From assembly GCA_051061385.1 (NCBI GenBank), contig JBPFDX010000094.1:7252-71251 (forward strand): DNA of 64,000 bases. Direction: 5' to 3'. Position 1 is the first letter of the stretch; every line of letters begins with the position of its first letter. The notes under the pieces were generated by a model. The model ran no database searches. It saw only the letters and a list, made by a program, of their open reading frames with translations, and was not told the origin of the DNA. The DNA comes from Methylocystis sp. (GTDB lineage: Bacteria; Pseudomonadota; Alphaproteobacteria; Rhizobiales; Beijerinckiaceae). Made by a program: the position numbers and the translations under genes. Below, piece by piece: positions 19,001 through 31,865 of this stretch.

Positions 19001-19322
19001 TGCCGACGTAAAAGCGCGCCGTGACCACCACATTGTCGTCGCGCGTCTGCGAATAGACGTGCTCGACGCCGTTGACGCCCTTGATGATGTCCTCGAGCGG
19101 GCGCGTGATGAGTTCGATCGCGTCTTCCGCCTTATAGCCATTGGCCGACACCATGATGTCGACCATCGGCACGGAGATCTGCGGCTCCTCCTCGCGCGGC
19201 AGCGAGCGCAGCGCGATCAGTCCGACAAGAATCGAAGCGAGCAGGAGGAGCGGCGTCAGCGGCGAATTGATGAAAGCGCGCGTCAGCGTGCCGGAAATGC
19301 CCGGACGAAATTCATCGCTCAT
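16086..19322 (-). CDS. RND efflux permease (AcrB/AcrD/AcrF family)
   Basis: PREEEPQI, GILVDDAIVVVENI, RNSILLVDF, RFKPIFLT; 1078 aa. Confidence 0.93.
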   Translation of the reverse strand: MSDEFRPGISGTLTRAFINSPLTPLLLLASILVGLIALRSLPREEEPQISVPMVDIMVSANGYKAEDAIELITRPLEDIIKGVNGVEHVYSQTRDDNVVVTARFYVGTSQDNAVLRIHDKMRANISDLPKGIPEPLIVGRGIDDVAIVVLTLSAKPERADRWTDNGLYQVAEELQHDLTKVNDVGLSYIVGGSPNQIRVEPDPERLSQYGVTLNQLIDKLTNANRSFLVGAFREGNRAVPVVAGQTLQGVPDVGQLLLTTRDGRPVYVKDVAEVRVGAAEPDRRSWTMTRNAAGGLDKRPAVSIAIAKRKGANAVVVADEIMHRLEAVKGRIVPDDIEIAVTRDYGETATEKANELLFHLALATVSIVALIVVMVGWREGVVVFVIIPTTILLTLFASWLMGYTINRVSLFALIFSIGILVDDAIVVVENIVRHWHMRGSRSLIDTAVEAVAEVGNPTIVATLTIVAALLPMMFVSGLMGPYMSPIPANASLAMIFSFFVAMTITPWLLLKVAGKRFAQERGDGVDHAHERGAMGNFYVRVATPLLKGRKRSQWFLTAVGLATLLSMTLFATKTVRVKLLPFDNKSEIAVVVDLPRGASLEETDRVLTAAAERLKDIPELTSIQSYAGAAAPFNFNGLVRHYYMRNAPEMGDLAINLQPKGERSRASHAIALDIRKKLEGLPAPEHTAIKVVEVPPGPPVLSTLLAEVYGPDAQSRRDLAAKVRKAFDAVDFVVDTDDSYGQRAERLRFEIDQEALEYHGVEERAVYDTIGALVGGVKIGFSQKGGGAKPVDITVALPRSAMTPGEGILSTPLPAGGTERQGANVELGDVVKATRELGSYPIFRHNGRFAEMVSAEVAGRLEAPIYGMLAVEDAIDKMDWGPSGPPTIKYHGQPLDDSQPTLLWDGEWEVTYVTFRDMGAAFMVALLGIYLLVVAQFGSFKLPLVILAPVPLTLVGIVIGHILFNAAFTATSMIGFIALAGIVVRNSILLVDFIRHLRARGMTLRAALIEAGAVRFKPIFLTAAAAIIGAAFILTDPIFQGLAISLVFGLASSTALTLLVIPAIYVVLRDDETPRSAS

Positions 19323-20308
19323 GGCGTCGACACCACGTCGCCGTCATGGAGACCGGAAAGAATTTCGACGCCGTCGCCATGCGCTTCGCCAGGCTGAACG
19401 ACGATCTCCTCGCCGGAGGCAAGGCGGACGAAATCCACGCCGGCGCGTCGATAGACGGCGGCGCGCGGGATGATGATCGTGTCGCGCTTGCCCGTCGTGA
19501 CGTAAACGCGGGCCCGTTCGCCGACGAAATAGTCGCCGAGCCCTACGACATCGACGTCGGCGATGACGCGGCCGCCCTGAATTTCGGGATAGACGATGCG
19601 CACGCGCCCCTGCTTGCGCTCACCGCCCGCTTCTTCGTGCAGGCCGCGCGCGCCGATCTCGACCTTGTCGCCGGCGCGCATGAACCGCGCGTGGCGCTCC
19701 GGCAGTTGCAGGCGCAGAATGTATTTGTCCTCGGCGATCGTCGCGATGGTTTCGCCGGGCATCACCACGCGGCCGACGGAGACAGGAATGGTGAGGATGC
19801 GTCCTGGCCCCGGCGCGCGCACCGAGCCCTCCGCCGCCTGTTGTTCGATCACGCTGCGATCCGAGCGCAGCGCGGCGAGGTTGCGGTCGGCGACGTCGAG
19901 CGCGGTCTTCGCGTGATCGAACAGCGCCTTCGTATAGACGCCGCGGCGGAAAAGCTCCTGCGCGCGGTCGAAGTCGGACTGCGCCTTGTCGCGCTGGGCC
20001 TGCTGCGAGCGGATGCGCTGGTCGAGCGCCTGCATCTGCAAAAACAGCTTCTGGTCGACGACCGAGGCGATCTCGGCGCCGCCGGCGACGTCGTCGCCCT
20101 CTTTAATCTTGAGCGCGCTCACCGTCCCGCCGATTCGTGCCCTAGCCGTCAGTTGATGCGCAGGCTCCACGGAAGCGACGACGGCCTTGAGGTCCTCGAC
20201 CGGGGCGACCCGGATCGTGACCTCTCCGGCCTTGGCGCCCAAGGAGAAGGCGAGCGCGGCGAGGAGCGCCGTCGTCGGCGAAAAATGGAGGCGGCGCATT
20301 TGTCTCAT
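19319..20308 (-). CDS. RND periplasmic adaptor (membrane fusion protein)
   Basis: Signal peptide, ARIGG lipoyl half-motifs flanking a coiled coil, C-terminal SGLHDGD. Confidence 0.9.
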   Translation of the reverse strand: MRQMRRLHFSPTTALLAALAFSLGAKAGEVTIRVAPVEDLKAVVASVEPAHQLTARARIGGTVSALKIKEGDDVAGGAEIASVVDQKLFLQMQALDQRIRSQQAQRDKAQSDFDRAQELFRRGVYTKALFDHAKTALDVADRNLAALRSDRSVIEQQAAEGSVRAPGPGRILTIPVSVGRVVMPGETIATIAEDKYILRLQLPERHARFMRAGDKVEIGARGLHEEAGGERKQGRVRIVYPEIQGGRVIADVDVVGLGDYFVGERARVYVTTGKRDTIIIPRAAVYRRAGVDFVRLASGEEIVVQPGEAHGDGVEILSGLHDGDVVSTP

Positions 20309-20321
20309 GCAGCCCAGTTAT

Positions 20322-20352
20322 ATGCAGAAAACGTAAATTAGCAATAGCGAAT
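20322..20352. promoter_or_regulatory. Putative SqrR/BigR tandem operator A
   Basis: ATGC-N8-TAAATTA-N8-GAAT, 13 bp upstream of the RND adaptor start. Confidence 0.65.
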
Positions 20353-20413
20353 TTAAGATCAGGAAAGGAAAGGACAGGGCGGCGCGGCGCCGCCCGACTT
20401 TCCTTCAGTGGCG

Positions 20414-20650
20414 TCAGCCCCAGAGATTGCACCAGCCGCGCGCGCTGACGGGCCCGCTCACCACGCCGCAGCCCGATGGCGGGTTGAACCAGGAGCAGTT
20501 GGCGCAGCTTTGCCGGCCGTTCGGCGCGCCGCGATAGTCGGCCGCCGATTTGCTCGACTTCGCTTGCGCCGTCGTCGCAGAAAGTCCAGCGGCGGCCGCG
20601 CCCAACAACAACATCAAGGAGCGGCGCGTCGGCGCGCGAAATTCCACCAT
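20414..20650 (-). CDS. High-potential iron-sulfur protein (HiPIP) with Tat signal
   Basis: TRRSLML twin-Arg motif; CANC-x8-C-x12-C with GWC; GGGAGG RBS. Confidence 0.88.
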   Translation of the reverse strand: MVEFRAPTRRSLMLLLGAAAAGLSATTAQAKSSKSAADYRGAPNGRQSCANCSWFNPPSGCGVVSGPVSARGWCNLWG

Positions 20651-20681
20651 TTCAACCTCCCTTGGCAATTCATCCGTTGCC

Positions 20682-20712
20682 GGACGATTCCATTAAATTA
20701 GATGAACGTAAT
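20682..20712. promoter_or_regulatory. Putative SqrR/BigR operator B (one good half)
   Basis: GGAC-N8-TAAATTA-N8-TAAT upstream of the HiPIP gene. Confidence 0.45.
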
Positions 20713-20774
20713 ATACCGTGTTCGCGCCGGCATGAATGCGACATAACGCTCTTTCACGCCTGCGATACGCTCGC

Positions 20775-20803
20775 TTGACAATTATATTCAATAATCATAA
20801 TTT
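20775..20803 (+). promoter_or_regulatory. Sigma70 promoter of the sqrR operon
   Basis: TTGACA-N17-TAATTT. Confidence 0.6.
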
Positions 20804-20816
20804 AGAAAACATGAAT
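20786..20816. promoter_or_regulatory. Putative SqrR/BigR tandem operator C (autoregulatory)
   Basis: ATTC-N8-TAATTTA-N8-GAAT covering the -10 box and start codon. Confidence 0.7.
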
Positions 20817-21170
20817 GTAAAAGCGATTGAGCTCGCGCCGAAAGCTGCGGAGGCCGAGAGCTTTCTAAAGGCTCTGGCCAACCGTCATCGGCTGATGGTG
20901 CTGTGCCAGCTCCACGCGGGCGAGCTGTCGGTGACAAAGCTGCAGGAGGCGATCGGGCTGAGCCAATCGTCGCTGTCGCAGCATCTCGCGCGGCTGCGCG
21001 AGGACAAGCTCGTCAAGACCCGCCGCGAATCCCAGACGATCTACTATTCCCTGGCCGACGGTAACGTCTCACGAATCATCGGACTGCTTTACGAGATGTT
21101 TTGCGCCGAGGAGTGCGGCAAGCCGGCCAAACCGCGCGCGCGCGCAAAATCAAAGGAACTCACGTCATGA
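20811..21170 (+). CDS. sqrR: ArsR-family persulfide-sensing repressor (SqrR/BigR type)
   Basis: LKALANRHRLMVLC (helix-2 Cys), SQSSLSQHLARLR, LYEMFC (helix-5 Cys). Confidence 0.85.
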   Translation: MNVKAIELAPKAAEAESFLKALANRHRLMVLCQLHAGELSVTKLQEAIGLSQSSLSQHLARLREDKLVKTRRESQTIYYSLADGNVSRIIGLLYEMFCAEECGKPAKPRARAKSKELTS

Positions 21171-21367
21171 GCATTGATCGCATCGTTATGGCCTTCGCAG
21201 GCGCCATGATCCTTTTGAGCCTGCTCCTGGCGCAGTTGTTCAGCCCATGGTGGCTCTTGCTTACGGCTTTCGTCGGCGTCAATCTGCTGCAGGCGGCGTT
21301 TACCGGACTCTGCCCGTTAGCGATGGCGCTGAAACGGTTCGGCGCCAGATCAGGCGCCGCTTTCTAG
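21167..21367 (+). CDS. DUF2892 (YgaP-like) membrane protein
   Basis: FVGVNLLQAAFTGLCP motif; ATGA overlap with sqrR. Confidence 0.88.
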   Translation: MSIDRIVMAFAGAMILLSLLLAQLFSPWWLLLTAFVGVNLLQAAFTGLCPLAMALKRFGARSGAAF

Positions 21368-21443
21368 GATTCATCAGCGTGTGCGCACAGGGCGCAGCGC
21401 GCACTTGGCTGGGCCTTTGATCGTTAGCGACGAAGAGCAGACG

Positions 21444-22112
21444 ATGCCTTTCGATTGGGTCGACGAAACGCCGTCCTTGCGCAGCCTCGACGCCGCGACG
21501 AAGACCCTTCTGCGCGACTCCGCCGTTCGCAAGCAAATCCCGCGCGGCGCCGTGCTGTTTCGGCCGGGCGACCAATGCGCGCAGTTCCCGCTGATCGTCT
21601 CGGGCACTGTGCGCGTGCAGCGGGTGACCGAGTCGGGCAGGGAAATCGTGCTCTATCGAGTCGGCGAGAATGAAACCTGCATTCTGACCACGGCGTCGCT
21701 GCTTTCGGACGACGCCTACGCCGCTGAAGGCGTCGCCGAGACTGACGTGATCGCCTATGTCGTCCCCGCCGATCGTTTCAACGCGCTGATGAATGCTTCC
21801 GAAAGCTTTCGCGCGCTGGTGTTCAACGGCTACAGCAAGCGTCTCGCGACCTTGATGTCGCGCATCGAGGAAATCGTCTGCACGCGCATCAATGTTCGTT
21901 TGGCGGAACGCCTTCTCGCGCTGCGCGACGCCGGCGACAAGATCGCCGCCACGCAGCAGGCGCTCGCCGCGGATCTCGGCACGGCGCGCGAAGTCGTCGG
22001 CCGCACGCTGAAAGCGTTCGAGCGTTCTGGCTGGGTAAAATTGTCGCGCGGCGGCGCCGAGATCGTCAATCCCGCGGCGTTGCGTTCGCTGTGCGCCGCA
22101 CAGCGTGACTAA
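21444..22112 (+). CDS. Crp/Fnr-family transcriptional regulator
   Basis: cNMP-like domain (GREIVLYRV, GETCILT) and HTH (TQQALAADLGTAREVVGRTL). Confidence 0.92.
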   Translation: MPFDWVDETPSLRSLDAATKTLLRDSAVRKQIPRGAVLFRPGDQCAQFPLIVSGTVRVQRVTESGREIVLYRVGENETCILTTASLLSDDAYAAEGVAETDVIAYVVPADRFNALMNASESFRALVFNGYSKRLATLMSRIEEIVCTRINVRLAERLLALRDAGDKIAATQQALAADLGTAREVVGRTLKAFERSGWVKLSRGGAEIVNPAALRSLCAAQRD

Positions 22113-22117
22113 GTCGC
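22105..22117. promoter_or_regulatory. Palindromic motif GTGAC-TAA-GTCGC (copy 3 of 4)
   Basis: Centred on the Crp/Fnr stop codon, 90 nt upstream of sqr. Confidence 0.6.
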
Positions 22118-22207
22118 GGACATGCGCGCGACAAGCGTGCATGTCGTGACAAAATGAGCGCAACCGTCAGCGCAAACTTTGTGCGCGCAAGCGCATGGGA
22201 GGATTGA

Positions 22208-23491
22208 ATGGCTCACATCGTTATCATGGGCGCCGGGATCGGCGGCGTCGCCGCCGCGATCGAAGTTCGCGAGGGACTCTCGAAGCAACATCAGGTCACG
22301 GTCGTCTCTGACCTTGAGAATTTTCAGTTCACGCCGTCCAATCCGTGGCTCGCGGTGCAATGGCGCAAGCCCGAGGAGCTCAAGGTTCCGCTCGCGCCGG
22401 TGTTCAAGAAGAAGAACATCGGCTTCATTCCGGTCGGCGCGAAGCGCGTTATGCCCGAAGAGAACCGCCTCGAGCTCGCGAATGGCGAGAGCGTCGCCTA
22501 CGACTATCTCGTCATCGCCACCGGACCGAAGCTCGCGTTCGAAGAATTGCCCGGACTTGGACCTCACGGCGGGCACACGCATTCGATCTGCACGCTGCAG
22601 CATGCCGAGATCGCGTCGAAGGCCTATGAGGAGTTCTGCAAGAATCCCGGCCCGATCATCATCGGCGCGGCGCCCGGCGTCTCATGCTTTGGTCCGGCGT
22701 ATGAATACGCCATGATTCTTTCCACCGATCTGCGTCGCCGCGGCATCCGCGACAAGGTGCCGATGACCTACATCACGTCCGAGCCCTATATTGGGCATCT
22801 TGGTTTGGGCGGCGTCGGCGACACCAAGGGTATGCTCGAATCGGCGTTCCGCGACCGCGACATCAAATGGATCGTCAACGCCAAGACGACCGCGATCGAA
22901 CCCGGGCTGCTCAAATGCGCCGAGCTCGACGACCAGGGGCAGGTCAAGAAGGAGCACGAAGTGCCCTTCAAATTCGCCATGGTGATGCCCGCCTTCAAAG
23001 GCGTCGATGCGCTGATGGGCGTCGAGGGGCTGGTCAATCCTCGCGGCTTCGTCATCATCGACAAGAATCAGCGCAATCCGAAATATCCGAATGTGTTCGG
23101 CGTCGGCGTCTGCGTCGCGATCCCGCCCGTCGAGGCGACGCCGGTGCCCACCGGCACGCCGAAGACCGGCTATATGATCGAGTCCATGGTGACCGCCACG
23201 GCGCATAACATCGCCGCGCTGATCGCCGGGCGTGAAGCCAAGGAAGAAGGCACGTGGAACGCGGTTTGCTTGGCGGATTTCGGCGACAAGGGCGTCGCCT
23301 TCGTCGCCAAACCGCAGATTCCGCCGCGTAACGTCAATTGGTCAAGCGAAGGGCGTTGGGTGCATCTCGCGAAGATCGCCTATGAGAAATACTTCCTTCG
23401 CAAGGTTCGTAAGGGGCAGAGCGAGCCTGTATATGAGCGGTACATCATGAAGCTGCTCGGCATCGAACGACTGCGCCGCGCTCTGTCATAA
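22208..23491 (+). CDS. sqr: Sulfide:quinone oxidoreductase, type I (SqrA-like)
   Basis: GAGIGG FAD motif, FTPSNPW, SICT, SCFGPAYE, CVAIPP...PKTGYMIESM, AVCLADFG (three conserved Cys). Confidence 0.93.
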   Translation: MAHIVIMGAGIGGVAAAIEVREGLSKQHQVTVVSDLENFQFTPSNPWLAVQWRKPEELKVPLAPVFKKKNIGFIPVGAKRVMPEENRLELANGESVAYDYLVIATGPKLAFEELPGLGPHGGHTHSICTLQHAEIASKAYEEFCKNPGPIIIGAAPGVSCFGPAYEYAMILSTDLRRRGIRDKVPMTYITSEPYIGHLGLGGVGDTKGMLESAFRDRDIKWIVNAKTTAIEPGLLKCAELDDQGQVKKEHEVPFKFAMVMPAFKGVDALMGVEGLVNPRGFVIIDKNQRNPKYPNVFGVGVCVAIPPVEATPVPTGTPKTGYMIESMVTATAHNIAALIAGREAKEEGTWNAVCLADFGDKGVAFVAKPQIPPRNVNWSSEGRWVHLAKIAYEKYFLRKVRKGQSEPVYERYIMKLLGIERLRRALS

Positions 23492-23528
23492 CAGGGCCCC
23501 GCCGCCATGCAATGCTGGAGGAGAGTCG

Positions 23529-23687
23529 ATGCGGACTAGGCCGTTAAGGCGCGAGATCCTCCTCGCGCTGGCGTTTAAATTGCTGGCGCTCATCGCGCTC
23601 TACGTCCTGTTTTTCGGCCCCGCGCATCGTATCAAGGTGACGCCGGCGCAGATGGCGGAAGCGCTTTCCGCCGCCGCGCCGCGCTGA
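23529..23687 (+). CDS. cydP: Cytochrome bd small subunit CydP-like, 52 aa (not in ORF track)
   Basis: MRTRPLRREILLALAFKLLALIALYVLFFGP; GGAGGAG RBS; directly precedes cydA. Confidence 0.75.
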   Translation: MRTRPLRREILLALAFKLLALIALYVLFFGPAHRIKVTPAQMAEALSAAAPR

Positions 23688-23720
23688 CGCCCGTCAGCTG
23701 ACTTCTGTCAGGAGCCCAAT

Positions 23721-25295
23721 ATGTTCGAACTCGACGTCGTCACCCTCTCGCGCCTGCAATTTGCGCTGACGGCGCTGTATCACTTCCTCTTCGTGCCGCT
23801 GACGCTGGGTCTCGCGCTGCTGCTCGCGATCATGGAAAGCGTCTATGTGATGACGGGTCGAACCGTCTGGCGCGATGCGACGCAGTTCTGGGGCACGCTG
23901 TTTGGCATCAACTTCGCCATGGGCGTCGCCACCGGCGTCACGATGGAGTTCCAGTTCGGCACCAACTGGGCCTATTACTCGCATTACGTCGGCGACATCT
24001 TCGGCGCGCCGCTCGCCATCGAGGGCCTGATGGCCTTCTTCCTCGAGGCGACCTTCGTCGGCCTGTTCTTCTTTGGCTGGAAACGACTGAGCAAGGTGCA
24101 GCATCTCGCTGTCACCTGGCTCGTCGCGCTCGGCGCCAATTTCTCGGCGCTGTGGATTCTCGTCGCGAACGCCTGGATGCAGAATCCGGTCGGCGCGGCG
24201 TTCAATCCACAGACGATGCGCATGGAGCTGACGTCCTTCACCGAGGTGCTGTTCAATCCCGTGGCGCAATCGAAATTCGTGCACACGGTGAGCGCCGGCT
24301 ATGTCACGGGCGCGATGTTCGTCATGTCGATTGGCGCCTATTTCCTTTTGAACCGCCGCCACGTCGACATCGCCCGCCGCTCGCTGACGGTGGCGGCGAG
24401 CTTCGGGCTCGCCTCAGCGCTTTCGGTCGTCGTGCTCGGCGATGAGAGCGGCTATACGGCGGGCGAGAACCAGAAGATGAAGATCGCCGCGATCGAGGCC
24501 ATGTGGGAGACGGAGCCGCCGCCCGCGTCTTTCACGCTCTTTGGTTTCCCCGATCTCAAGAGCGAAACGACGAAAGACGAGATCAGAATACCGTGGATCC
24601 TGGGGCTGATCGCCACACGCTCGCTCGATAAGCCCGTCGAAGGCGTGAAGGCGCTCGTCCAACGTTCCGAGGAGCGTATCCGCAACGGCATGGCCGGCTA
24701 TCAGTGGCTCGCGAAGGAAGGCGGCCATCCGAACGCCGTCGTTCCGCCGGAACTCGAGGCGTCGATGCGCGACGTCGGCCATTCGCTGCTCGTCAAGCGC
24801 ATCCGGCCGGACATCGAGAACGCCACCGACGCGCAGATCCACGAAGCGGCGATGTCGACGATCCCCGACGTGCCGGTGTTGTTCTGGTCGTTCCGAATCA
24901 TGGTGGCGCTGGGCTTCTATTTCATCGCGCTCTTCGCCATCGCGTTTTATCTGTCGAGCCGGCGACGCTGCGGCAGGCCCTGGTTCCTGCGCATGGTCAT
25001 GTATAGCCTGCCCTTGCCCTGGGTCGCCGCCGAACTCGGTTGGATCGTCGCTGAATACGGCCGGCAGCCGTGGATCATCGACGGAACGATGCCGACATTC
25101 CTCGGCGTCTCGAACATCCCTGCATCGAATGTCGCGGCGAGCCTCGCGGCCTTCGTGCTGTTCTACAGCGCGCTCGCCATTATCGATGTCGCGCTCATCG
25201 TCAAATATGTGCGCATCGGACCGCGTTCGGAGGCTGAGCCCCAGACCACCGGCGCGCCGGTGCTCCCCGCGCCTGCGCCGGCGCAAACGCGATAG
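23721..25295 (+). CDS. cydA: Cytochrome bd ubiquinol oxidase subunit I
   Basis: ALYHFLFVP heme His, FQFGTNW, QKMKIAAIEAMW Q-loop, EYGRQPW. Confidence 0.97.
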   Translation: MFELDVVTLSRLQFALTALYHFLFVPLTLGLALLLAIMESVYVMTGRTVWRDATQFWGTLFGINFAMGVATGVTMEFQFGTNWAYYSHYVGDIFGAPLAIEGLMAFFLEATFVGLFFFGWKRLSKVQHLAVTWLVALGANFSALWILVANAWMQNPVGAAFNPQTMRMELTSFTEVLFNPVAQSKFVHTVSAGYVTGAMFVMSIGAYFLLNRRHVDIARRSLTVAASFGLASALSVVVLGDESGYTAGENQKMKIAAIEAMWETEPPPASFTLFGFPDLKSETTKDEIRIPWILGLIATRSLDKPVEGVKALVQRSEERIRNGMAGYQWLAKEGGHPNAVVPPELEASMRDVGHSLLVKRIRPDIENATDAQIHEAAMSTIPDVPVLFWSFRIMVALGFYFIALFAIAFYLSSRRRCGRPWFLRMVMYSLPLPWVAAELGWIVAEYGRQPWIIDGTMPTFLGVSNIPASNVAASLAAFVLFYSALAIIDVALIVKYVRIGPRSEAEPQTTGAPVLPAPAPAQTR

Positions 25296-25309
25296 GAAAG
25301 GCGACAGCG

Positions 25310-26449
25310 ATGTTCGACTATATGACGCTTCGCCTCATCTGGTGGGCGCTGCTGGGCGTTCTGCTCGTAGGCTTCGCCGTCCTCGACGGTTTCGACATCG
25401 GCGTCGCCATGCTGCATCCCTTCGTCGCCCGCAACGACACGCAGCGGCGCGTGACGCTCAATACGATCGGCCCCGTGTGGGAAGGCAATCAGGTCTGGTT
25501 CATCCTCGGCGGCGGCGCCGCCTTCGCGGCCTGGCCGCCGCTTTACGCGGTGTCCTTCTCCGGCTTCTACCTCGCGATGCTGCTGGTGCTGATCGGCCTC
25601 ATTTTGCGGCCGGTGGCGATCACCTTCCGCGACAAAAGACCGGAGAGCGGCTGGCGCGAGACCTGGGACTGGCTCTTCTTCGCTTCGGGCGCCGTGCCCG
25701 CGCTGATCTTCGGCGTCGCCTTCGGCAATCTTCTGCAGGGCGTTCCCTTTCATTTCGATCAGCAGCTGCGCGCCACTTATGAGGGCGGCCTCCTCGGCCT
25801 GCTCAACCCCTTCGCCTTGCTCTGCGGCCTCGTCAGCGTGACGATGCTCGCGATGCAGGGCGCCGCCTGGCTGAGCGTGAAGAGCGAGGGCGAGGTCGCC
25901 GTCCGAGCCCGGCGATATGGCGCCGTCGCGGCGATCCTGCTGGTTCTGCTCATCTCCGGCGCCGGAATTTGGACGATGCTCGGGGTGGAGGGATTCCGGA
26001 TAGACGGCGTCATCGAACATGCCGGCCCGTCCAATCCGCTCGCCAAGACGGTGACGCGAGAAACTGGCGCCTGGTTCGATAATTACCGGGCCTACCCCTG
26101 GATGATCGCGGCCCCGGCCGCCGCCTACATCGGCGCTCTGATCGCGGCGCTGGCCCTCGCGCTTTCGGCGAGAAGGATCGCGCTTCTCGCCAGCAGCCTT
26201 TCGGTTGCGGGGGTTGCGACCATGGCGGGCTTCAGCATGTTCCCGTTCCTGCTGCCGTCGTCGACTCACCCGAGCCAGAGCCTGACGGTCTGGGACGCTT
26301 CGTCGAGCAAAGCGACGCTCTCGCTGATGCTCGTCGCGGTGATCGTCTTTCTGCCGATCGTTCTTACCTACACGAGCTGGGTCTACTACGTGCTGCGCGG
26401 CGCCGTCAGCGAGGCGGCGATCCGTCGCGGCGACGACTATTATTATTGA
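25310..26449 (+). CDS. cydB: Cytochrome bd ubiquinol oxidase subunit II
   Basis: LDGFDIG, IGPVWEGNQVW, SLTVWDASSS. Confidence 0.97.
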   Translation: MFDYMTLRLIWWALLGVLLVGFAVLDGFDIGVAMLHPFVARNDTQRRVTLNTIGPVWEGNQVWFILGGGAAFAAWPPLYAVSFSGFYLAMLLVLIGLILRPVAITFRDKRPESGWRETWDWLFFASGAVPALIFGVAFGNLLQGVPFHFDQQLRATYEGGLLGLLNPFALLCGLVSVTMLAMQGAAWLSVKSEGEVAVRARRYGAVAAILLVLLISGAGIWTMLGVEGFRIDGVIEHAGPSNPLAKTVTRETGAWFDNYRAYPWMIAAPAAAYIGALIAALALALSARRIALLASSLSVAGVATMAGFSMFPFLLPSSTHPSQSLTVWDASSSKATLSLMLVAVIVFLPIVLTYTSWVYYVLRGAVSEAAIRRGDDYYY

Positions 26450-26466
26450 GCGGGAGAACACGAAGC

Positions 26467-26574
26467 ATGTGGTATTTTTCCTGGATATTGGGTCTGGGGC
26501 TCGCCTGCGCCTTCGCCATTCTCAACGCCATGTGGCTTGAGCTAGATGACGACGACGAGCGGCGGAAGAAATAG
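26467..26574 (+). CDS. cydX: Cytochrome bd small subunit CydX, 35 aa (not in ORF track)
   Basis: MWYFSWILGLGLACAFAILNAMWLE. Confidence 0.92.
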   Translation: MWYFSWILGLGLACAFAILNAMWLELDDDDERRKK

Positions 26575-26588
26575 GCGGCTCCCGGAGC

Positions 26589-26601
26589 GAGACATAGTCG
26601 C
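26589..26601. promoter_or_regulatory. Palindromic motif GAGAC-ATA-GTCGC (copy 4 of 4)
   Basis: Intergenic, 61 nt upstream of the second DUF2892 gene. Confidence 0.5.
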
Positions 26602-26662
26602 TGAGCGATATTGCGCGACGCGATAGGCTCGCATCGTAACCCGTCGCGGGAAGGAGACAGTC

Positions 26663-26848
26663 ATGGAAGCCAATATTGGAAGGACCGATCGCATCATCCG
26701 GATCGTCGTCGGTCTCTTGTTGCTCAGTCTCGTTTTCATCGGGCCGCAGACCTTATGGGGGCTCGTCGGCCTTATCCCGCTGACGACGGCGTTCGTGAAC
26801 TTCTGCCCCGCCTATAAGCTGCTCGGCATGGATACGCTCGGCAAATAG
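26663..26848 (+). CDS. DUF2892 (YgaP-like) membrane protein
   Basis: NIGRTDRIIRIVVG...FCPAYKLLG; GGAG RBS. Confidence 0.88.
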   Translation: MEANIGRTDRIIRIVVGLLLLSLVFIGPQTLWGLVGLIPLTTAFVNFCPAYKLLGMDTLGK

Positions 26849-26936
26849 TCGGCGCGCGCGGGAATACGCAAAGACGGTCGACGCTTGGGGGCGCCGACCG
26901 CTGTAAGACGCTGAGCGGCGAAGCGTTCCACGTTAA

Positions 26937-28553
26937 ATGCACGAAACGGCGATCACCTTTCACGCCCGCGGCATGCATTGTCACGGCTGCGAACATGTCA
27001 TCGAAGCGGCGATCAAGAAGCTCGCCGGCGTGCGCAGCGTCTCGGCGAGCTATCCGACGGAAACGGTCGTCGTCGACTATGACGCTGACGCCACGAATTT
27101 CCGCGCGATCCGCGAAAGGGTCGAGCAGAACGGCTACCGCGTCGTTCTAACCGAGGAGGCGAAGCGCCGCCGTTCGCCGCTCGTGCGACTGGCGATCATC
27201 GTCGCGGCGCTCGCCGGGCTCGCCGGTTTGATTCTCTTCGATACGCGCTGGATCAGCGCCGAGGGCGAACCCGACATCGCCCAGCATATGAGTCTCGGCC
27301 TTCTGTTCCTGCTGGGGCTCCTGACAGGCTTCCACTGCGTCGGCATGTGCGGCGCTTTCGTCGTGAGCTATGCGGCGGCCGATGCGCGCGCCGGACGCTC
27401 GTCCTTCGTGTCGCACCTCGCCTATGGCGCCGGAAAGACGCTGTCCTACACGGCGATCGGCGCAGCCTTCGGCTGGCTCGGCGCTTTCATCGCCTTCACG
27501 CCGATGCTGCGCGGCGTCGCCGGAGTCGCCGCAGGCGCGTTCCTCATCATCTTCGGCCTCAACATGCTTGGGCTCTTCGCGCCGCTGCGCCGCTTCCGGC
27601 TCGGCCTGCCGGGGCCGCTGCAGAACTGGGTCAATCGCGAGGCCGGCGGCGCGCGCCATCGGCCGTTCGTGATCGGCCTTCTCAACGGGCTGATGATCGC
27701 CTGCGGTCCGTTGCAGGCGATGTATGTGATGGCGGCGGGGACAGGCAGCCCCATCGAAGGCGCGAAGACGCTCTTCGTCTTCGGCCTTGGAACCTTGCCG
27801 GTGATGCTCGCCTTCGGCGCGCTGACGACGGTGCTTTCGGGCGCCGTCACCCATCGATTGCTGACGGCCTCTGGCGTGATCGTCGTCGCGCTCGGCGCGG
27901 TGATGATCAATCGTGGTCTCATTCTCACGGGTTCAGGCGCCGATCTCGCGTCGGTGATGACCAGCTGGCGGCATTCGGCGCCCGTTGAACTTGCGCAGAC
28001 GTCGCAGGATGCGACTGTCGCGCCGCAAACGCAAACAATCGAGATGGAAGCCAATGGGCTGGGATTCACGCCGAGCCGCTTCACGCTTCTGCGCGGCGTG
28101 CCGGTCAAATGGGTGATCAACGCCACGGAAGTGACGACCTGCAACAATCGAATCGTCGTTCCATCGATGAACCTCGAATTCGACGTCAAACCGGGGCGGC
28201 AGACGATCGAGTTCACGCCCGAGAAAACCGGCGTCATTCCGTGGAGCTGCTGGATGGGCATGTTGCGCGGCGAGTTTGTCGTCGTAGACGCGAAGTCCGG
28301 GCAGGCCTCGCAGCCTGCACAGCCAGCCGCGCCCGCTTCGGACGTTCAGGCCACGCCTGGGGCGACGCCGAGCGCCCCGCCAGCCGCAAAGACCTACACG
28401 GCGCGCCGCGGCGACACGCTGCGTTCGATCGCGAAGCGACTCTATGGCGACGAAAAGCGCTGGCGCGACATTGCCGCCGCCAACCCTGCGCTGAATCCCA
28501 AGAAGCTGCGGCAAGGACAAATCATCAATTTGCCAGTCATCGCGCAGCCGTGA
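26937..28553 (+). CDS. Fusion protein: HMA domain + DsbD_2/TauE-like membrane domain + cupredoxin + LysM
   Basis: GMHCHGC; GFHCVGMCG and ACGPLQAMY; TCNNRI...WSCWMGM; YTARRGDTLRSIAKRLYG...ANP...LRQGQIINLP. Confidence 0.85.
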   Translation: MHETAITFHARGMHCHGCEHVIEAAIKKLAGVRSVSASYPTETVVVDYDADATNFRAIRERVEQNGYRVVLTEEAKRRRSPLVRLAIIVAALAGLAGLILFDTRWISAEGEPDIAQHMSLGLLFLLGLLTGFHCVGMCGAFVVSYAAADARAGRSSFVSHLAYGAGKTLSYTAIGAAFGWLGAFIAFTPMLRGVAGVAAGAFLIIFGLNMLGLFAPLRRFRLGLPGPLQNWVNREAGGARHRPFVIGLLNGLMIACGPLQAMYVMAAGTGSPIEGAKTLFVFGLGTLPVMLAFGALTTVLSGAVTHRLLTASGVIVVALGAVMINRGLILTGSGADLASVMTSWRHSAPVELAQTSQDATVAPQTQTIEMEANGLGFTPSRFTLLRGVPVKWVINATEVTTCNNRIVVPSMNLEFDVKPGRQTIEFTPEKTGVIPWSCWMGMLRGEFVVVDAKSGQASQPAQPAAPASDVQATPGATPSAPPAAKTYTARRGDTLRSIAKRLYGDEKRWRDIAAANPALNPKKLRQGQIINLPVIAQP

Positions 28554-28617
28554 CGATTCGTCTCGTTCGCGACGCCACGTTGCGCGCTACGCTAGTCTTG
28601 GAACAGAGGGGGAGGCC

Positions 28618-29166
28618 ATGATCAAAAAATTCCTGTTCGCCGCGGCTTGCGGGCTGTCGCTATTCGCCGGCGCCGCCGCCTTCGCCGAGGACGATGACGA
28701 TGATCAGGGCGAGCACATGATGCACGAGCAGCATATGAAGATGTCGCCGAAGATGGGCGACACGCGCCAGGAGGTCGATGTTCCATCGCCGATGCGCACG
28801 CAAATGCTCTCTCACATGCGCGGCCACGCCGAGGCGATCGCCGAGATCCTCGCCGCGCTCGGCAAGGGCGACGGCGCGGCGGCGGCCAAAGTCGCCGACG
28901 CGCGCCTCGGCATGGCGTCTTCGGGCGCAGCGGCGTGCAAGCCGAACGCCAAGAGCGGCGAACTCGGCGATATGCCGGCGATGATGGCGCGACACATGCC
29001 CGACGAGATGCGCGCGCTCGGTCTGACGATGCACGAACAGGCGAGCAAATTCGCCCAGGAGGCGGCCAAGATCGGGCCCGGCGGCGACATGCGTCCCGCG
29101 CTTGCCGAATTGTCGCAAGTCGTGCAAGCCTGCAACGCCTGTCACGCCGCCTATCGCCTCGATTAG
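28618..29166 (+). CDS. Periplasmic class II (c'-type) cytochrome c with acidic and His/Met-rich N-terminus
   Basis: Signal peptide; C-terminal CNACH; helical body. Confidence 0.8.
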   Translation: MIKKFLFAAACGLSLFAGAAAFAEDDDDDQGEHMMHEQHMKMSPKMGDTRQEVDVPSPMRTQMLSHMRGHAEAIAEILAALGKGDGAAAAKVADARLGMASSGAAACKPNAKSGELGDMPAMMARHMPDEMRALGLTMHEQASKFAQEAAKIGPGGDMRPALAELSQVVQACNACHAAYRLD

Positions 29167-29257
29167 CGCTCGCGTGCGGCGCTCTAAATTATGTGAACGA
29201 TCACGTCATCTGGATTTGGGCGATTCGCCCAAATCCAGCGTGATCTAGGAGCCGACC

Positions 29258-30043
29258 GTGCGCATCGCGACCTGGAACGTCAATTCCGTAAGGCAGCGTC
29301 TCGCGCCGCTTCTCGCCTTTCTGCGGGACGCTGCGCCTGACGCGCTCTGCCTGCAGGAAACCAAGTGCGAGGATCACGCTTTCCCGCGGCTTGAGATCGA
29401 AGACGCGGGATATAACGTCGCCGTCCACGGGCAGAAGGGGTTCAACGGCGTCGCGATCCTGTCGGAGTCGCCGCTGCAGGACGTCGTCCTCGGCCTGCCA
29501 GGCTTCGACGGCGAGGCGCAGTCGCGCTACATCGAGGCGGTTCTCGCCGACGGCGCCGGCGGCGTGATGCGCGTCGCGTCCATCTATGCGCCAAACGGCA
29601 ATCCGCCGGATACGCAGAAATACTCTTACAAACTCGCCTTCATGGAGGCGCTGACGCGACATGCCGACGCGCTGCTGCGTCTCGAAGAGCCGACGGTTCT
29701 CGCCGGCGACTACAACGTCATTCCCGATGCGCGCGACGTCTATGAAGCCTCGGCGTGGCTTGGCGACGCATTATTTTTGCCGCAGACTCGCGCGGCCTAT
29801 CAGCGCCTGATCAATCTCGGCTACGCCGATGCGCTGCGGGCGACGTCGGACGAAGGCGGGCTCTACACGTTCTGGGATTATCAGGCCGGCGCCTGGCAGA
29901 AGAACAAGGGCCTTCGCATCGACCACCTTCTGCTCTCGCCGCGCGCAGCGGATCGGCTGGCGCGCGTGGAGATCGTCAAGTCGATGCGCGCCGGCGACAA
30001 GCCCTCCGATCACGTCGCGATCTACGCCGATTTCGCTGCGTGA
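29258..30043 (+). CDS. xth: Exodeoxyribonuclease III
   Basis: IATWNVNS, LQETK, GDYN, RIDHLL, SDH; GTG start. Confidence 0.95.
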   Translation: MRIATWNVNSVRQRLAPLLAFLRDAAPDALCLQETKCEDHAFPRLEIEDAGYNVAVHGQKGFNGVAILSESPLQDVVLGLPGFDGEAQSRYIEAVLADGAGGVMRVASIYAPNGNPPDTQKYSYKLAFMEALTRHADALLRLEEPTVLAGDYNVIPDARDVYEASAWLGDALFLPQTRAAYQRLINLGYADALRATSDEGGLYTFWDYQAGAWQKNKGLRIDHLLLSPRAADRLARVEIVKSMRAGDKPSDHVAIYADFAA

Positions 30044-30837
30044 TCGAAAAGCCCAAGCGCGCCGCCGCTGCGCCAGAGCACATAGAGCGCCACCGCGAAG
30101 ACCACCGTGGCGAAGACGGCGCTCAGCGCGCCGCGCATTTTCGACAGTCGCCGCGCCACCGCGGCGCCGATCAGCCCGCCGAACGCGCCGCCGATCACCA
30201 GCGTTCCGGCAAGCTCCCATTCGACGAGGTCTGAATAGGCGTAGTTCGCCGCCGTCGTGACCGCAAAGGCGGCGACGGCGACGAGCGACGAGCCGATGGC
30301 GTTCAGGATCGGCATGTCGGAAGCGAACATCAGCCCGGGCACGATCAGGAAGCCGCCGCCGATCCCGAAGAAGCCGGAAAGCGCGCCCGCCGTCACGCCG
30401 GCGCCCGCGAGCCGCGGAAAATTCTCGCGGTTGAGTCTTACCGAGGGATATCCCAAGGAGCCCCGACGGCGCAGCATGAGATAGGACACGACGATCATCA
30501 GCAGCGCGAAGAGCGCGAGCAGCTTCTCGCCATTGATGATCTTGCCGAGCGTCGATCCTGCGAAGGCGCCGCCGATGCCGAAAAGCGCGAAAACGGAAGC
30601 GCAGCGCCATTTGATAGTGCGCGCGCGCGCATGATTGGCGAGACTCATCAGCGCATTGACCGCGACCGCCGCCGCGCTCGAGCCGATCGCGACATGCGGA
30701 TTCGGCACGCCAACGAAATAGACGAGAAGCGGCACGGCAAGCACCGAGCCGCCGCCGCCGACCAGGCCGAGCGTAAAGCCGACGAGGGCGCCGGAGATCA
30801 GGCCGAGCACGGCGTCGAGGGGAAGAGCCGTCAGCAT
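30022..30837 (-). CDS. TauE/SafE sulfite exporter
   Basis: GLVGGGGSVLAVP, GFFGIGGGFLIVP repeats. Confidence 0.9.
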   Translation of the reverse strand: MLTALPLDAVLGLISGALVGFTLGLVGGGGSVLAVPLLVYFVGVPNPHVAIGSSAAAVAVNALMSLANHARARTIKWRCASVFALFGIGGAFAGSTLGKIINGEKLLALFALLMIVVSYLMLRRRGSLGYPSVRLNRENFPRLAGAGVTAGALSGFFGIGGGFLIVPGLMFASDMPILNAIGSSLVAVAAFAVTTAANYAYSDLVEWELAGTLVIGGAFGGLIGAAVARRLSKMRGALSAVFATVVFAVALYVLWRSGGALGLFDHAAKSA

Positions 30838-30867
30838 GTCAGCATGTCGCTCCTTCGCGCGTGTAAT

Positions 30868-30898
30868 ATTAGCACTTGCTTATTTAGCTATAGCGCAT
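30868..30898. promoter_or_regulatory. Putative SqrR/BigR tandem operator D
   Basis: ATTA-N8-TTATTTA-N8-GCAT in the divergent tauE/pdo promoter region. Confidence 0.65.
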
Positions 30899-30977
30899 AT
30901 ATCTGACGGCGCAAGCACGAAAGGCGAAAGCACGAAGGAAGAGAAGCGCTTGAGCGCTGCACTTGAAGGAGAGATCG

Positions 30978-31865
30978 ATGTCGCAGGCGCCGTCAGTGAG
31001 GGCCTTCTTCGACGAGCCCACCAATACGATCACCTATATTGTCAGCGATCCCGCCACTAAGCGTGCGGCGATCGTCGACCCCGTGCTCGACTATGACCCG
31101 GCGAGCGGCGTCGCAGATTCGCATTCCGTCGACGCCATCCTCGCCGAGGCGGCGCGGGAGGGTTTGACAATCGACTGGGTGCTTGAGACCCACGCGCACG
31201 CCGACCACCTTTCCGCCGCCCAGATCGTCAAGGCGGCGACGGGGGCGAAGATCGGCATCGGCGAACACATCGACAAGGTCCAGAAGCTCTTCAAGCCGGT
31301 GTTCGGCGCTGACGACCTGAAGGCCGACGGCGGCTGCTTCGACCACCTCTTCAAGGACGGCGAGCGGTTCAAGATCGGCGAGATCGAGGCCGAAACGATC
31401 TACACGCCCGGCCACACGCCGGCCGACGTCGCCTACAGGATCGGCGATGCGGTGTTTGTCGGCGACACGCTGTTCATGCCTGACTATGGGACGGCGCGCG
31501 CGGATTTCCCGGGCGGCGACGCGCATGCGCTCTATCGGTCGATCCGGCGAATTCTCTCGCTGCCGCCGCAGACGCGGCTCTTCATGTGCCACGACTACAA
31601 GGCGCCGGGACGCGACGCCTACGCCTGGGAGACGACGGTCGCGGAGCAGCGCGCCAAGAACGTGCAGATCAGAGACGGCGTCAGCGAAGAGGAATTCGTG
31701 GCCCAGCGCCAGAAGCGGGACAAGGGGCTCGCCGCCCCGCGTCTGCTGCTGCCGTCGATTCAAGTGAACATTCGCGCCGGCAAGTTTCCGCCGCCGCAGG
31801 AGGGCGGCGCGCGCTTCCTCCGCATCCCGGTGAAGTTCACGGGCGCCGCGGCGCGCGCCGGCTGA
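30978..31865 (+). CDS. Persulfide dioxygenase (MBL fold, Blh/SdoA type)
   Basis: DPVLDYD, ETHAHADHLS, TPGHTPA, GDTLFMPDYGTARADFPGG, CHDY, LLLPSIQVN. Confidence 0.92.
   Translation: MSQAPSVRAFFDEPTNTITYIVSDPATKRAAIVDPVLDYDPASGVADSHSVDAILAEAAREGLTIDWVLETHAHADHLSAAQIVKAATGAKIGIGEHIDKVQKLFKPVFGADDLKADGGCFDHLFKDGERFKIGEIEAETIYTPGHTPADVAYRIGDAVFVGDTLFMPDYGTARADFPGGDAHALYRSIRRILSLPPQTRLFMCHDYKAPGRDAYAWETTVAEQRAKNVQIRDGVSEEEFVAQRQKRDKGLAAPRLLLPSIQVNIRAGKFPPPQEGGARFLRIPVKFTGAAARAG

What the first reader, a model, noticed from the sequence alone, without database searches (positions are those of the whole stretch)
20322..30898. Four copies of a 31-bp tandem operator (ATKM-N8-TAAWTTA-N8-KMAT) mark the SqrR regulon
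Seen: A 20322 ATGC-N8-TAAATTA-N8-GAAT; B 20682 GGAC-N8-TAAATTA-N8-TAAT (one half); C 20786 ATTC-N8-TAATTTA-N8-GAAT, over the -10 box and ATG of sqrR; D 30868 ATTA-N8-TTATTTA-N8-GCAT, between tauE and pdo. Each is two 16-bp sites overlapping by one base (15-bp period). Known (recalled): Rhodobacter SqrR binds ATTC-N8-GAAT. The fixed tandem geometry suggests cooperative binding of two dimers. It ties the distant tauE/pdo pair, the RND operon and HiPIP to the same sensor. No such site precedes sqr itself, which has the other motif instead.
Basis: partly seen in the sequence, partly recalled or inferred. Interest (0 to 1): 0.7.

Follow-up and report, generated by a model that had tools for sequence, protein, structure and literature searches.

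The report
Double operator of a sulfide-sensing repressor
Three promoters of a sulfide-detoxification gene cluster in a methane-oxidising Methylocystis carry the same conserved 31-37 bp DNA element, made of two overlapping binding sites for the cluster's persulfide-sensing repressor. This double layout has not been described for natural operators of this sensor family.

Summary
Sites A (20322-20352), C (20786-20816) and D (30868-30898) are full 31-bp elements. B is a single site, 20694-20715. In the whole 3.49-Mb genome the 31-bp pattern, with up to 1 mismatch, occurs only at A, C and D.

All the sites are conserved across Methylocystis without any indel: C in 31 loci, A in 29, D in 13 of 13. 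The conserved parts are three blocks (TATATKC, TAAWTTAG, GAATWTA). The two 8-bp spacers between them vary.

The adjacent regulator is a SqrR/BigR-type ArsR protein with both sensing cysteines. Its DNA-reading helix is closer to HlyU's than to Rhodobacter SqrR's. The site halves fit ATTM-N8-KAAT and the NolR form (A/T)TTAG-N9-AT; none is an exact ATTC-N8-GAAT.

Genomes that lack this regulator have a different palindrome before pdo.

The same 15-bp-period double site lies next to SqrR-like genes in at least three or four other families of Hyphomicrobiales. The classic operators are single dyads: Rhodobacter rcc1451 and sqr, and the S. meliloti blh promoter read here.

Published work reports one dimer per natural SqrR operator. 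Multi-dimer binding has been reported only for SELEX-made operators. Two dimers per element, and any cooperativity, remain inferred.

Verdict: a real operator set and a new variant of a known kind, of moderate interest.

The parts
20319..20355 (.). Site A: double operator TATATGC-N8-TAAATTA-N8-GAATTTA. It lies 11 bp upstream of the first ATG of the MFP/RND operon and overlaps a minus-strand TTGCTA-16-TATAAC promoter-like pair.
   Evidence: Exact pattern in 29 Methylocystis loci without indels. The two 22-mer halves have 1 and 0 mismatches.
20694..20715 (.). Site B: single 22-bp site TAAATTA-N8-TAATATA, 44 bp upstream of the HiPIP ATG. On the minus strand it begins with a -10-like TATATT.
   Evidence: It is one of only three exact 22-mer matches in the genome.
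20783..20819 (.). Site C: double operator TATATTC-N8-TAATTTA-N8-GAATGTA. It runs from the spacer after the -35 (TTGACA, 20775-20780), over the -10-like TAATTT, into codons 1-3 of sqrR. The sqrR mRNA is probably leaderless.
   Evidence: It is invariant in 31 loci and also present in the 68-74% identity clade. Codon 3 is the rare GTA or ATA.
30865..30901 (.). Site D: double operator AATATTA-N8-TTATTTA-N8-GCATATA in the divergent tauE/pdo promoter region. It can also be read as a direct repeat of (A/T)TTAG-N9-AT.
   Evidence: 13 of 13 genomes; ATTAG, TTGCTTATTTAG and ATAT invariant; a near-identical strain has no change inside D and 5 changes in its flanks.
20811..21170 (+). sqrR-like gene: a 119-aa ArsR-family repressor. 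Cys32 and Cys98 align with RcSqrR C41 and C107.
   Evidence: Pfam HTH_5. Best solved relatives are RcSqrR 6O8K/13CT (E 4e-24), HlyU, NolR and BigR.
21167..21367 (+). YgaP-like DUF2892 membrane protein, overlapping the sqrR stop codon. A Crp/Fnr-type regulator gene follows at 21381-22112.
20414..20650 (-). HiPIP-like gene with a twin-arginine signal, followed by an intrinsic terminator at 20377-20395.
   Evidence: Pfam HIPIP, borderline at E 1.9e-4. Terminator.
16086..20308 (-). MFP (19319-20308) and RND permease (16086-19322), downstream of site A.
30022..30837 (-). TauE/SafE-family exporter, left of site D.
30978..31865 (+). Metallo-beta-lactamase-fold persulfide dioxygenase (pdo/blh-like), right of site D.
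22208..23491 (+). SQR-like flavoprotein. In this genome it has no SqrR-type site upstream, only the GTGAC-TAA-GTCGC palindrome at 22106-22118.
   Evidence: The M. parvus clade has TAATTTA-N8-GAATATA in the same place.

Best explanation
A, B, C and D are operators of the SqrR/BigR-type persulfide-sensing repressor encoded at 20811-21170.

The unit site is a 16-bp dyad, ATTM-N8-KAAT, or 22 bp with its flanks (TAWWTTM-N8-KAAWWTA). B is one unit. A, C and D are two units set exactly 15 bp apart, so the two inner half-sites overlap in a shared TAAWTTA heptamer.

Inferred mechanism:
1. The reduced repressor binds the sites. At A, C and D two dimers bind side by side and cover about 37 bp, including the -35, -10 and start-site elements.
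2. This blocks RNA polymerase at the RND operon, at sqrR's own (probably leaderless) operon, and at the divergent tauE and pdo promoters.
3. By B-DNA arithmetic, a 15-bp offset puts the second dimer about 154 degrees round the helix from the first. The inner subunits would be close enough to touch, which would allow cooperative, switch-like repression.
4. Persulfide bridges Cys32 and Cys98. The protein leaves the DNA and the genes are expressed.

sqr-cydAB has no such site here. It probably responds indirectly, through the Crp/Fnr-type regulator that appears to be co-transcribed with sqrR.

Shown: the sites, their geometry, their conservation, their position on promoters, their co-occurrence with the regulator, and the family and cysteines of the regulator.

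Inferred: binding itself, two dimers per element, cooperativity, the persulfide response, and the cascade to sqr.
For: - Genome-wide, the 31-mer with up to 1 mismatch occurs only at A, C and D. The three exact 22-mer matches in the genome are A-right, B and C-left; A-left and C-right have 1 mismatch and the two D halves have 2.
- Three blocks are conserved and the two N8 spacers vary, with no indel, in 29 (A), 31 (C) and 13 (D) Methylocystis loci. This includes species whose regulator is only 68-74% identical.
- The element sits in a different register to the -35 and -10 at each promoter. In C its centre is the -10. In A the centre directly follows the -35. In D it adjoins the pdo -35. A shared promoter layout therefore cannot explain it.
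- ATATTC is invariant inside the sqrR promoter spacer. Codon 3 of sqrR is always GTA (2.6% of Val codons) or ATA (4.6% of Ile codons), which keeps the GAAT-RTA flank.
- The regulator has an ArsR wHTH. Its best solved relative is RcSqrR, and both sensing cysteines align.
- Four Methylocystis genomes without this regulator whose pdo upstream region was read (G007-G010) carry a different palindrome there.
- The same 15-bp-period double site lies within about 100 bp of SqrR-like genes, and/or beside PDO or MFP genes, in other families: Microvirga, Methylobacterium, and coded families f10, f20, f27 and f35.
- Literature: the SqrR core is ATTC-N8-GAAT and a 22-bp duplex is the minimum for tight binding. 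The NolR consensus is (A/T)TTAG-N9-A(T/A). SqrR can bind multi-dimer operators cooperatively when these are selected in vitro.
Against: - There is no binding, footprint or expression data for this protein.
- Natural RcSqrR operators bind a single dimer, so two dimers per element has no precedent in this subfamily.
- Parts of the conserved blocks coincide with likely -35 and -10 hexamers, which would be conserved anyway.
- A-left (ATGC) and both halves of D are weaker matches.
- Single sites with a TAAWTTA end exist: B, the M. parvus sqr site, and the Methylocella and Methylocapsa sqrR promoters. The heptamer alone therefore does not prove a second site.
- Two recognition helices only 3 bp apart may clash. 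My geometry estimate is rough.
- The RNA contigs gave no start-site information.
Confidence: 0.7

Rival explanations
1. Only one 16/22-bp unit in each element is a working operator, binding one dimer as in Rhodobacter. The other half is conserved because it holds promoter elements (-35, -10, UP-like AT tracts), or it serves as an alternative register that is never occupied at the same time.
For: Natural RcSqrR operators bind 1:1. Single sites exist here (B) and at the Methylocella and Methylocapsa sqrR promoters. A-left and the D halves are weaker matches. TAGCAA and TTATAT in A, and TAATTT in C, coincide with plausible promoter hexamers.
Against: ATATTC in the sqrR promoter spacer is invariant and is not a promoter element. 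The exact 15-bp offset is kept in more than 70 orthologous sites without one indel. It recurs next to SqrR-like genes in unrelated promoters of other families, with both halves at 0-1 mismatch, for example L104 (0, 0) and L102 (0, 1).
Confidence: 0.2
2. The matches are generic AT-rich promoter DNA in a GC-rich genome, or targets of an AT-tract-binding silencer such as MucR/Ros. They are not sites of a specific repressor.
For: All the sites are AT-rich islands at promoters. The pattern was defined after the fact. The reversed-pattern control also hits many AT-rich genomes.
Against: The pattern is unique to this cluster in 3.49 Mb. Conservation is position-specific, with variable spacers. The register to the -35 and -10 differs between sites. 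The pattern co-occurs with the regulator gene. 7 of 28 foreign pattern hits lie beside SqrR-like and/or PDO or MFP genes. The halves match the published SqrR and NolR site forms.
Confidence: 0.04
3. Another regulator reads the elements, for example the Crp/Fnr-type protein encoded after ygaP, or a second ArsR paralogue.
For: A Crp/Fnr gene lies in the same apparent operon. Some Methylocystis genomes hold 2-3 SqrR-like paralogues.
Against: This genome has one SqrR-like gene at E<=1e-20. A different palindrome, GTGAC-N3-GTCGC, marks sqr and is the better candidate for the Crp/Fnr protein. A site lying on the regulator's own start codon is typical ArsR-family autoregulation. The loci in other families have SqrR-like genes but no Crp/Fnr gene was noted there.
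Confidence: 0.04

Closest known systems
Rhodobacter capsulatus SqrR and its 'sqr box' (rcc1451: ATTC-N8-GAAT; sqr/rcc0785: ATTC-N8-ATAT)
   Same: ArsR-family persulfide sensor with the same cysteine pair. A 16-bp dyad with the same 8-bp spacer, and 22 bp needed for tight binding. The site directly follows a TTGACA -35, as the left half of site C does. Sulfide-oxidation genes are the targets.
   Different: The published natural operators are single dyads that bind one dimer. Here three of the four are two dyads overlapping by one base. The recognition helix differs at two of the four reported base-contacting positions (R60 to S, K84 to Q). The inner half-sites read TTAG/TTTA instead of ATTC.
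BigR and the BigR box of Xylella, Agrobacterium and Sinorhizobium (blh-bigR operon)
   Same: Same subfamily and the same kind of targets (persulfide dioxygenase, TauE/TSUP and YeeE-type membrane proteins). An AT-rich palindrome lies over the promoter.
   Different: The S. meliloti blh promoter read here has one dyad, ATAC-N8-GTAT, with no partner 15 bp away. I could not read the original BigR-box paper, so the Xylella and Agrobacterium sequences were not checked.
NolR (Sinorhizobium) and HlyU (Vibrio), non-metal ArsR regulators
   Same: The recognition helix LSQSxLSQHLA is nearly identical to that of HlyU. All four right-hand halves fit the NolR consensus (A/T)TTAG-N9-A(T/A).
   Different: The targets of NolR and HlyU are nodulation and toxin genes. 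No double overlapping site has been reported for them, to my knowledge (recalled, not checked).
SELEX-evolved multivalent SqrR operators (bioRxiv 10.64898/2026.05.02.721436)
   Same: Operators that recruit several SqrR dimers, one of them with strong positive cooperativity and tighter repression. AT-rich additions surround an ATTC-N8 core.
   Different: Those operators are artificial, take three dimers, and are described as unlike the natural operators. The elements here are natural, would take two dimers, and have a defined 15-bp register.
Multi-dimer operators of other repressors: SmtB/CzrA 12-2-12 (ArsR family), QacR IR1, DtxR/IdeR (recalled knowledge)
   Same: Two dimers on one extended palindrome, partly on opposite faces of the DNA.
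   Different: Different site forms and spacings. None shares a single central heptamer between two 16-bp dyads.

Membership tests
SqrR/BigR-type persulfide-sensing ArsR repressors (the regulator) | ArsR-type winged helix-turn-helix, about 100-120 aa | tested here: met
   Pfam HTH_5 E 7.8e-10, HTH_20 E 7.7e-9, 119 aa.
SqrR/BigR-type persulfide-sensing ArsR repressors (the regulator) | The two sensing cysteines (RcSqrR C41 in alpha2 and C107 near the C-terminus) | tested here: met
   Cys32 (LMVLCQL) and Cys98 (YEMFCA) align with LMIMCYL and YEQFCS of 6O8K/13CT.
SqrR/BigR-type persulfide-sensing ArsR repressors (the regulator) | Genomic link to sulfide or persulfide metabolism genes (sqr, pdo/blh, tauE, ygaP/DUF2892, yeeE) | tested here: met
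   ygaP-like, SQR, TauE and PDO genes lie in the cluster. Related loci show the same linkage.
SqrR/BigR-type persulfide-sensing ArsR repressors (the regulator) | DNA release on tetrasulfide or persulfide bridging of the cysteines | not testable with these tools
   Needs purified protein.
sqr-box operators (the DNA sites) | Core ATTC-N8-GAAT | tested here: inconclusive
   No exact copy occurs in the cluster. All seven halves fit the looser ATTM-N8-KAAT with 0-2 changes. The spacing is identical and the outer half-sites of C are exact ATTC and GAAT. The published sqr (rcc0785) operator is itself imperfect: ATTC-N8-ATAT.
sqr-box operators (the DNA sites) | Overlap with the core promoter of regulated genes, including the regulator's own | tested here: met
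   C covers the -10-like box and the ATG of sqrR. A, B and D lie 11-80 bp from the start codons. The promoter hexamers are read by eye; the consensus scanner did not call them.
Two-dimer (cooperative) operators | Two complete sites at a fixed, conserved spacing | tested here: met
   The 15-bp offset has no indel in 29 + 31 + 13 orthologous sites. It recurs in other families.
Two-dimer (cooperative) operators | Stoichiometry of two dimers per element and positive cooperativity | not testable with these tools
   Needs EMSA, ITC or mass photometry. Only a rough helical-phase estimate was made (inference).

The most novel reading that the evidence does not exclude
Many Hyphomicrobiales SqrR/BigR-type sensors use a natural, so far undescribed operator design. 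Two 16-bp dyads are fused through one shared TAAWTTA heptamer with a 15-bp register. This would load two dimers on nearly opposite faces of the DNA and make repression cooperative and the persulfide response switch-like. It would be the natural counterpart of the multivalent operators so far obtained only by in vitro selection. Single and double versions would be used at different promoters of one regulon to set different thresholds.
Probability: 0.4. Interest if true: 0.55.

Novelty: new variant of a known kind. Interest (0 to 1): 0.45.

Why it matters
Persulfide sensors of the SqrR/BigR family are model allosteric repressors and are being built into sulfide biosensors. Current work treats their natural operators as single dyads that take one dimer, and had to evolve multi-dimer operators in vitro to get tight, low-leak repression.

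A conserved natural double operator, found in several families, would give ready-made cooperative operators to test. It would also show how one sensor can set different thresholds within a regulon: double sites at the pump, at its own gene and at tauE/pdo, and a single site at HiPIP.

The sites also define the direct regulon in Methylocystis. It contains an RND pump of unknown substrate and a HiPIP. It excludes sqr-cydAB, which seems to be wired through a second regulator.

Tried and rejected
- Exact ATTC-N8-GAAT. There is none in the cluster, and the 34 sites genome-wide are not linked to sulfur genes.
- Other regulon members. The other 22-mer hits with up to 2 mismatches lie in coding DNA or at unrelated loci. 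The one other 15-bp pair, at C15:1733/1748, lies beside a small minus-strand ORF that I read by eye as a toxin-antitoxin gene, and it matches the 31-mer poorly.
- Transcription start sites from public RNA runs. Only assembled contigs were available and they were uninformative. One run covers the region evenly and may contain DNA.
- The consensus promoter scanner did not call the sqrR, RND, tauE or pdo promoters. It found one minus-strand match inside site C. The hexamers I cite are read by eye.
- The original BigR-box paper, the BigR structure paper and the 2017 SqrR paper are not held. I used the S. meliloti blh promoter as a stand-in.
- Methylocella and Methylocapsa sqrR promoters have only the right-hand site, so the double site at sqrR is not ancestral to the whole family.
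Full report
**What is in the sequence.**

- A, 20322-20352: ATGC-N8-TAAATTA-N8-GAAT.
- B, 20682-20712: GGAC-N8-TAAATTA-N8-TAAT.
- C, 20786-20816: ATTC-N8-TAATTTA-N8-GAAT.
- D, 30868-30898: ATTA-N8-TTATTTA-N8-GCAT.

**Gene map** (Pfam).

| Gene | Coordinates | Strand |
|---|---|---|
| RND permease | 16086-19322 | - |
| MFP | 19319-20308 | - |
| Terminator | 20377-20395 | |
| HiPIP-like gene | 20414-20650 | - |
| ArsR-family regulator | 20811-21170 | + |
| YgaP-like DUF2892 | 21167-21367 | + |
| Crp/Fnr-type regulator | 21381-22112 | + |
| SQR | 22208-23491 | + |
| cydAB | 23721-26449 | + |
| TauE | 30022-30837 | - |
| PDO | 30978-31865 | + |

A lies 11 bp before the MFP ORF. B lies 44 bp before the HiPIP ATG. 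C runs from just after a TTGACA (20775-20780), over TAATTT, into the first codons of the regulator. D lies between the divergent tauE and pdo genes.

**More than chance?** In the window, the degenerate 31-mer with up to 2 mismatches gives 7 strand matches against 0.35 +/- 0.70 in shuffles. In the whole 3.49-Mb, 63% GC genome it occurs, with up to 1 mismatch, only at A, C and D. The pattern was written from the sites, so I rely more on other tests.

Published work says SqrR needs 3 bp on each side of the 16-bp core. I therefore wrote the single unit as a 22-mer, TAWWTTM-N8-KAAWWTA. The only three exact matches in the genome are A-right, B and C-left. A-left and C-right are two of the six matches with 1 mismatch. 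The two halves of D have 2 mismatches each. I inspected four of the other hits (three of the four other 1-mismatch hits and the only other 15-bp pair). They lie in coding DNA or at unrelated loci, so I found no further credible regulon member.

**Conservation.** The genus is Methylocystis (record titles).

- Site C is present in every sqrR locus examined, 31 loci, with no indel. Its consensus is CTTGACA-N3-TATATTC-N8-TAATTTAG-N6-ATGAAT-R-TAAA. The blocks are invariant or nearly so and the N8 stretches vary.
- Site C is also present, as a double site, in Methylocystis species whose regulator is only 68-74% identical (L014-L019).
- Site A is exact in 29 loci: TTATATKC-N8-TAAATTAGCAA-N4-GAATTTA.
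- Site D is present in 13 of 13 genomes that have the orthologous pdo. ATTAG, TTGCTTATTTAG and ATAT are invariant.
- A contig from a near-identical strain in a public run has no change inside D and five changes in its flanks.
- B is conserved only as TAAATTMG-N6-nTAATATA. Its left half drifts freely, so B is a single unit.

**Promoter or operator?** Some conserved blocks coincide with likely promoter hexamers, which I read by eye; the consensus scanner does not call them. Four observations speak against a promoter-only reading.

1. The element sits in a different register at each promoter. In C the central heptamer is the -10. In A (minus strand) it directly follows the -35-like TTGCTA. In D it adjoins the pdo -35-like TTGCTT.
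2. ATATTC lies inside the sqrR promoter spacer, where sigma-70 promoters are not normally conserved, yet it is invariant.
3. The right end of C reaches into the gene. Codon 3 of sqrR is GTA or ATA in all genomes. These make up 2.6% of Val and 4.6% of Ile codons in this genome. That points to selection on the DNA (GAAT-RTA), not on the protein.
4. Methylocystis genomes with no match to this regulator have no such element before pdo. In the four whose upstream region I read, a different regulator-like gene and a different palindrome, ACTTTCATAAATTATGAAAGT or variants of it, sit there.

**Who binds?** The adjacent 119-aa protein has an ArsR wHTH. Its best solved relatives are R. capsulatus SqrR (6O8K, and the DNA complex 13CT; E 4e-24), then HlyU, NolR and BigR. 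Cys32 and Cys98 align with the sensing pair C41 and C107. A site lying on a regulator's own start codon is typical ArsR-family autoregulation.

Its recognition helix, LSQSSLSQHLARLR, is closer to HlyU's than to SqrR's. Of the four base-contacting residues reported for SqrR (R60, Q61, Q66, K84), two differ here (S51 and Q75).

This fits the sites. No half is an exact ATTC-N8-GAAT. The outer half-sites are ATTC or ATKC. The inner half-sites read TTAG or TTTA. All four right-hand halves fit the NolR consensus (A/T)TTAG-N9-A(T/A). The spacing is the same as in the SqrR box. One published natural SqrR operator is itself imperfect (ATTC-N8-ATAT).

**The double geometry.** In A, C and D two 16-bp dyads overlap by one base, a 15-bp period. 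The two 22-bp units therefore share the central heptamer TAAWTTA. Among more than 70 orthologous copies there is no length change.

The design is not confined to Methylocystis.

- Microvirga sp. VF16: TATATTA-N8-TAAATTA-N8-TAAATAA, 27 bp before the ATG of the ArsR gene that heads an arsR-yeeE-DUF6691-tauE-MBL-rhodanese operon.
- Methylobacterium oryzae: a weaker pair (3 mismatches in each half) before yeeE.
- Another Hyphomicrobiales family: before a yeeE-pdo operon (L060).

I then scanned 401 genomes of the order for the 37-mer with up to 2 mismatches. AT-rich genomes match by chance, and the reversed-pattern control matches them too. By my count of the table, about 65 genomes match forward only and about 32 match the control only. 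Of the 28 foreign loci returned, 7 lie within about 100 bp of a SqrR-like gene and/or beside PDO or MFP genes (tblastn). In five of these both halves are good: L102 has 0 and 1 mismatches, L104 has 0 and 0, L105 has 1 and 1, L106 has 2 and 1, and L107 has 2 and 0. In the other two (L099, L100) the second half has 3 mismatches.

Single sites occur elsewhere.

- The Methylocella and Methylocapsa sqrR promoters have only the right-hand unit.
- The M. parvus clade has a single TAATTTA-N8-GAATATA directly before sqr.
- The S. meliloti blh-bigR promoter has one dyad, ATAC-N8-GTAT.
- The two Rhodobacter operators used in binding studies are single dyads.

**What the literature says about stoichiometry.** A 2026 preprint with the SqrR-DNA crystal structure reports a 22-bp minimal operator and 1:1 dimer-to-DNA binding. 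A companion preprint obtained, by SELEX, operators that recruit three SqrR dimers, one of them with strong positive cooperativity and far less leak. It stresses that this differs from the natural rcc1451 operator. For Hyphomicrobium SoxR, a relative, two shifted bands were taken as two sites in one intergenic region.

I found no description of a natural overlapping double site in this subfamily. However, the original BigR-box, BigR-structure and 2017 SqrR papers were not available to me.

**Most likely mechanism.** The reduced repressor binds each unit as a dimer. At A, C and D two dimers bind 15 bp apart. By simple B-DNA arithmetic (34.3 degrees per bp) this is about 154 degrees round the helix. 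The inner subunits would sit on half-sites about 3 bp apart and roughly 100 degrees from each other, close enough for contacts but probably not clashing. This is my estimate, not a model.

Together the two dimers would cover the -35 to +1 region and shut off the RND operon, the sqrR-ygaP(-crp) operon, and both tauE and pdo. One dimer at B would cover the -10-like TATATT of HiPIP. Persulfide would bridge Cys32 and Cys98 and release the protein.

sqr-cydAB has no such site in this genome. It carries instead the GTGAC-TAA-GTCGC palindrome noted by another reader. The Crp/Fnr gene follows ygaP after a 13-nt gap. A cascade from SqrR to Crp/Fnr to sqr-cyd is therefore plausible, but it is inferred.

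Binding, stoichiometry, cooperativity and the persulfide response are all untested.

**Verdict.** The operator and regulon reading is well supported by comparative evidence. The two-dimer cooperative reading is a reasonable inference.

The regulator and the unit site are of a known kind. What appears to be new is the fused double operator and its spread over several families, and it is directly testable. Interest is moderate.

Noticed in passing
window 30830-30845: An 8-bp tandem duplication (minus strand ATGCTGAC ATGCTGAC) lies at the tauE start. The ATG with the well-spaced AAGGAG ribosome site now opens a 4-codon out-of-frame mini-ORF (ATG CTG ACA TGC TGA). The in-frame tauE ATG (30837) sits 12 nt from the ribosome site. 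In the alignment of 13 Methylocystis genomes only this one carries the extra 8 bp. A contig of a near-identical strain in a public run has it too.
   Followed up: partly
window 20735-20755: A second conserved box, GAATGCGACATAACGCTCTT, lies in the HiPIP-sqrR intergenic region in all HiPIP-bearing Methylocystis loci. It is centred about 42 bp upstream of the start predicted from the -10-like TATATT at site B, the position of a class II activator site. It may be a target of the Crp/Fnr-type regulator.
   Followed up: no
window 20775-20813: TTGACA, 17 bp, TAATTT, then 7 bp and the ATG, with no ribosome-binding site. The sqrR mRNA is probably leaderless, and this layout is conserved across the genus.
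   Followed up: partly
L084, L085, L087, L088 at about 4266-4300 (M. parvus, Methylocystis sp. JAN1 and relatives): In this clade sqr carries both the GTGAC-TAA-GTCGC palindrome and, directly after it, a single SqrR-type site TAATTTA-N8-GAATATA. The window's genome has only the palindrome.
   Followed up: partly
L045-L047, L049 (Methylocystis genomes without this SqrR): Here pdo follows a small gene starting MEDxNLAAAA..., preceded by a different inverted repeat (for example ACTTTCATAAATTATGAAAGT). This looks like another, unidentified sulfur-responsive regulator-operator pair.
   Followed up: no
L060 3372-3480: Next to the double site, an ArsR-like reading frame (…ALIADP*RLFIL…) has an in-frame TAG in the conserved helix. 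It is a possible pseudogene or a sequencing error.
   Followed up: no
window 20416-20676 and 19995-20293: Metatranscriptome contigs end near the predicted 5' ends of the HiPIP and MFP transcripts. This is low-depth assembled data and only suggestive.
   Followed up: no
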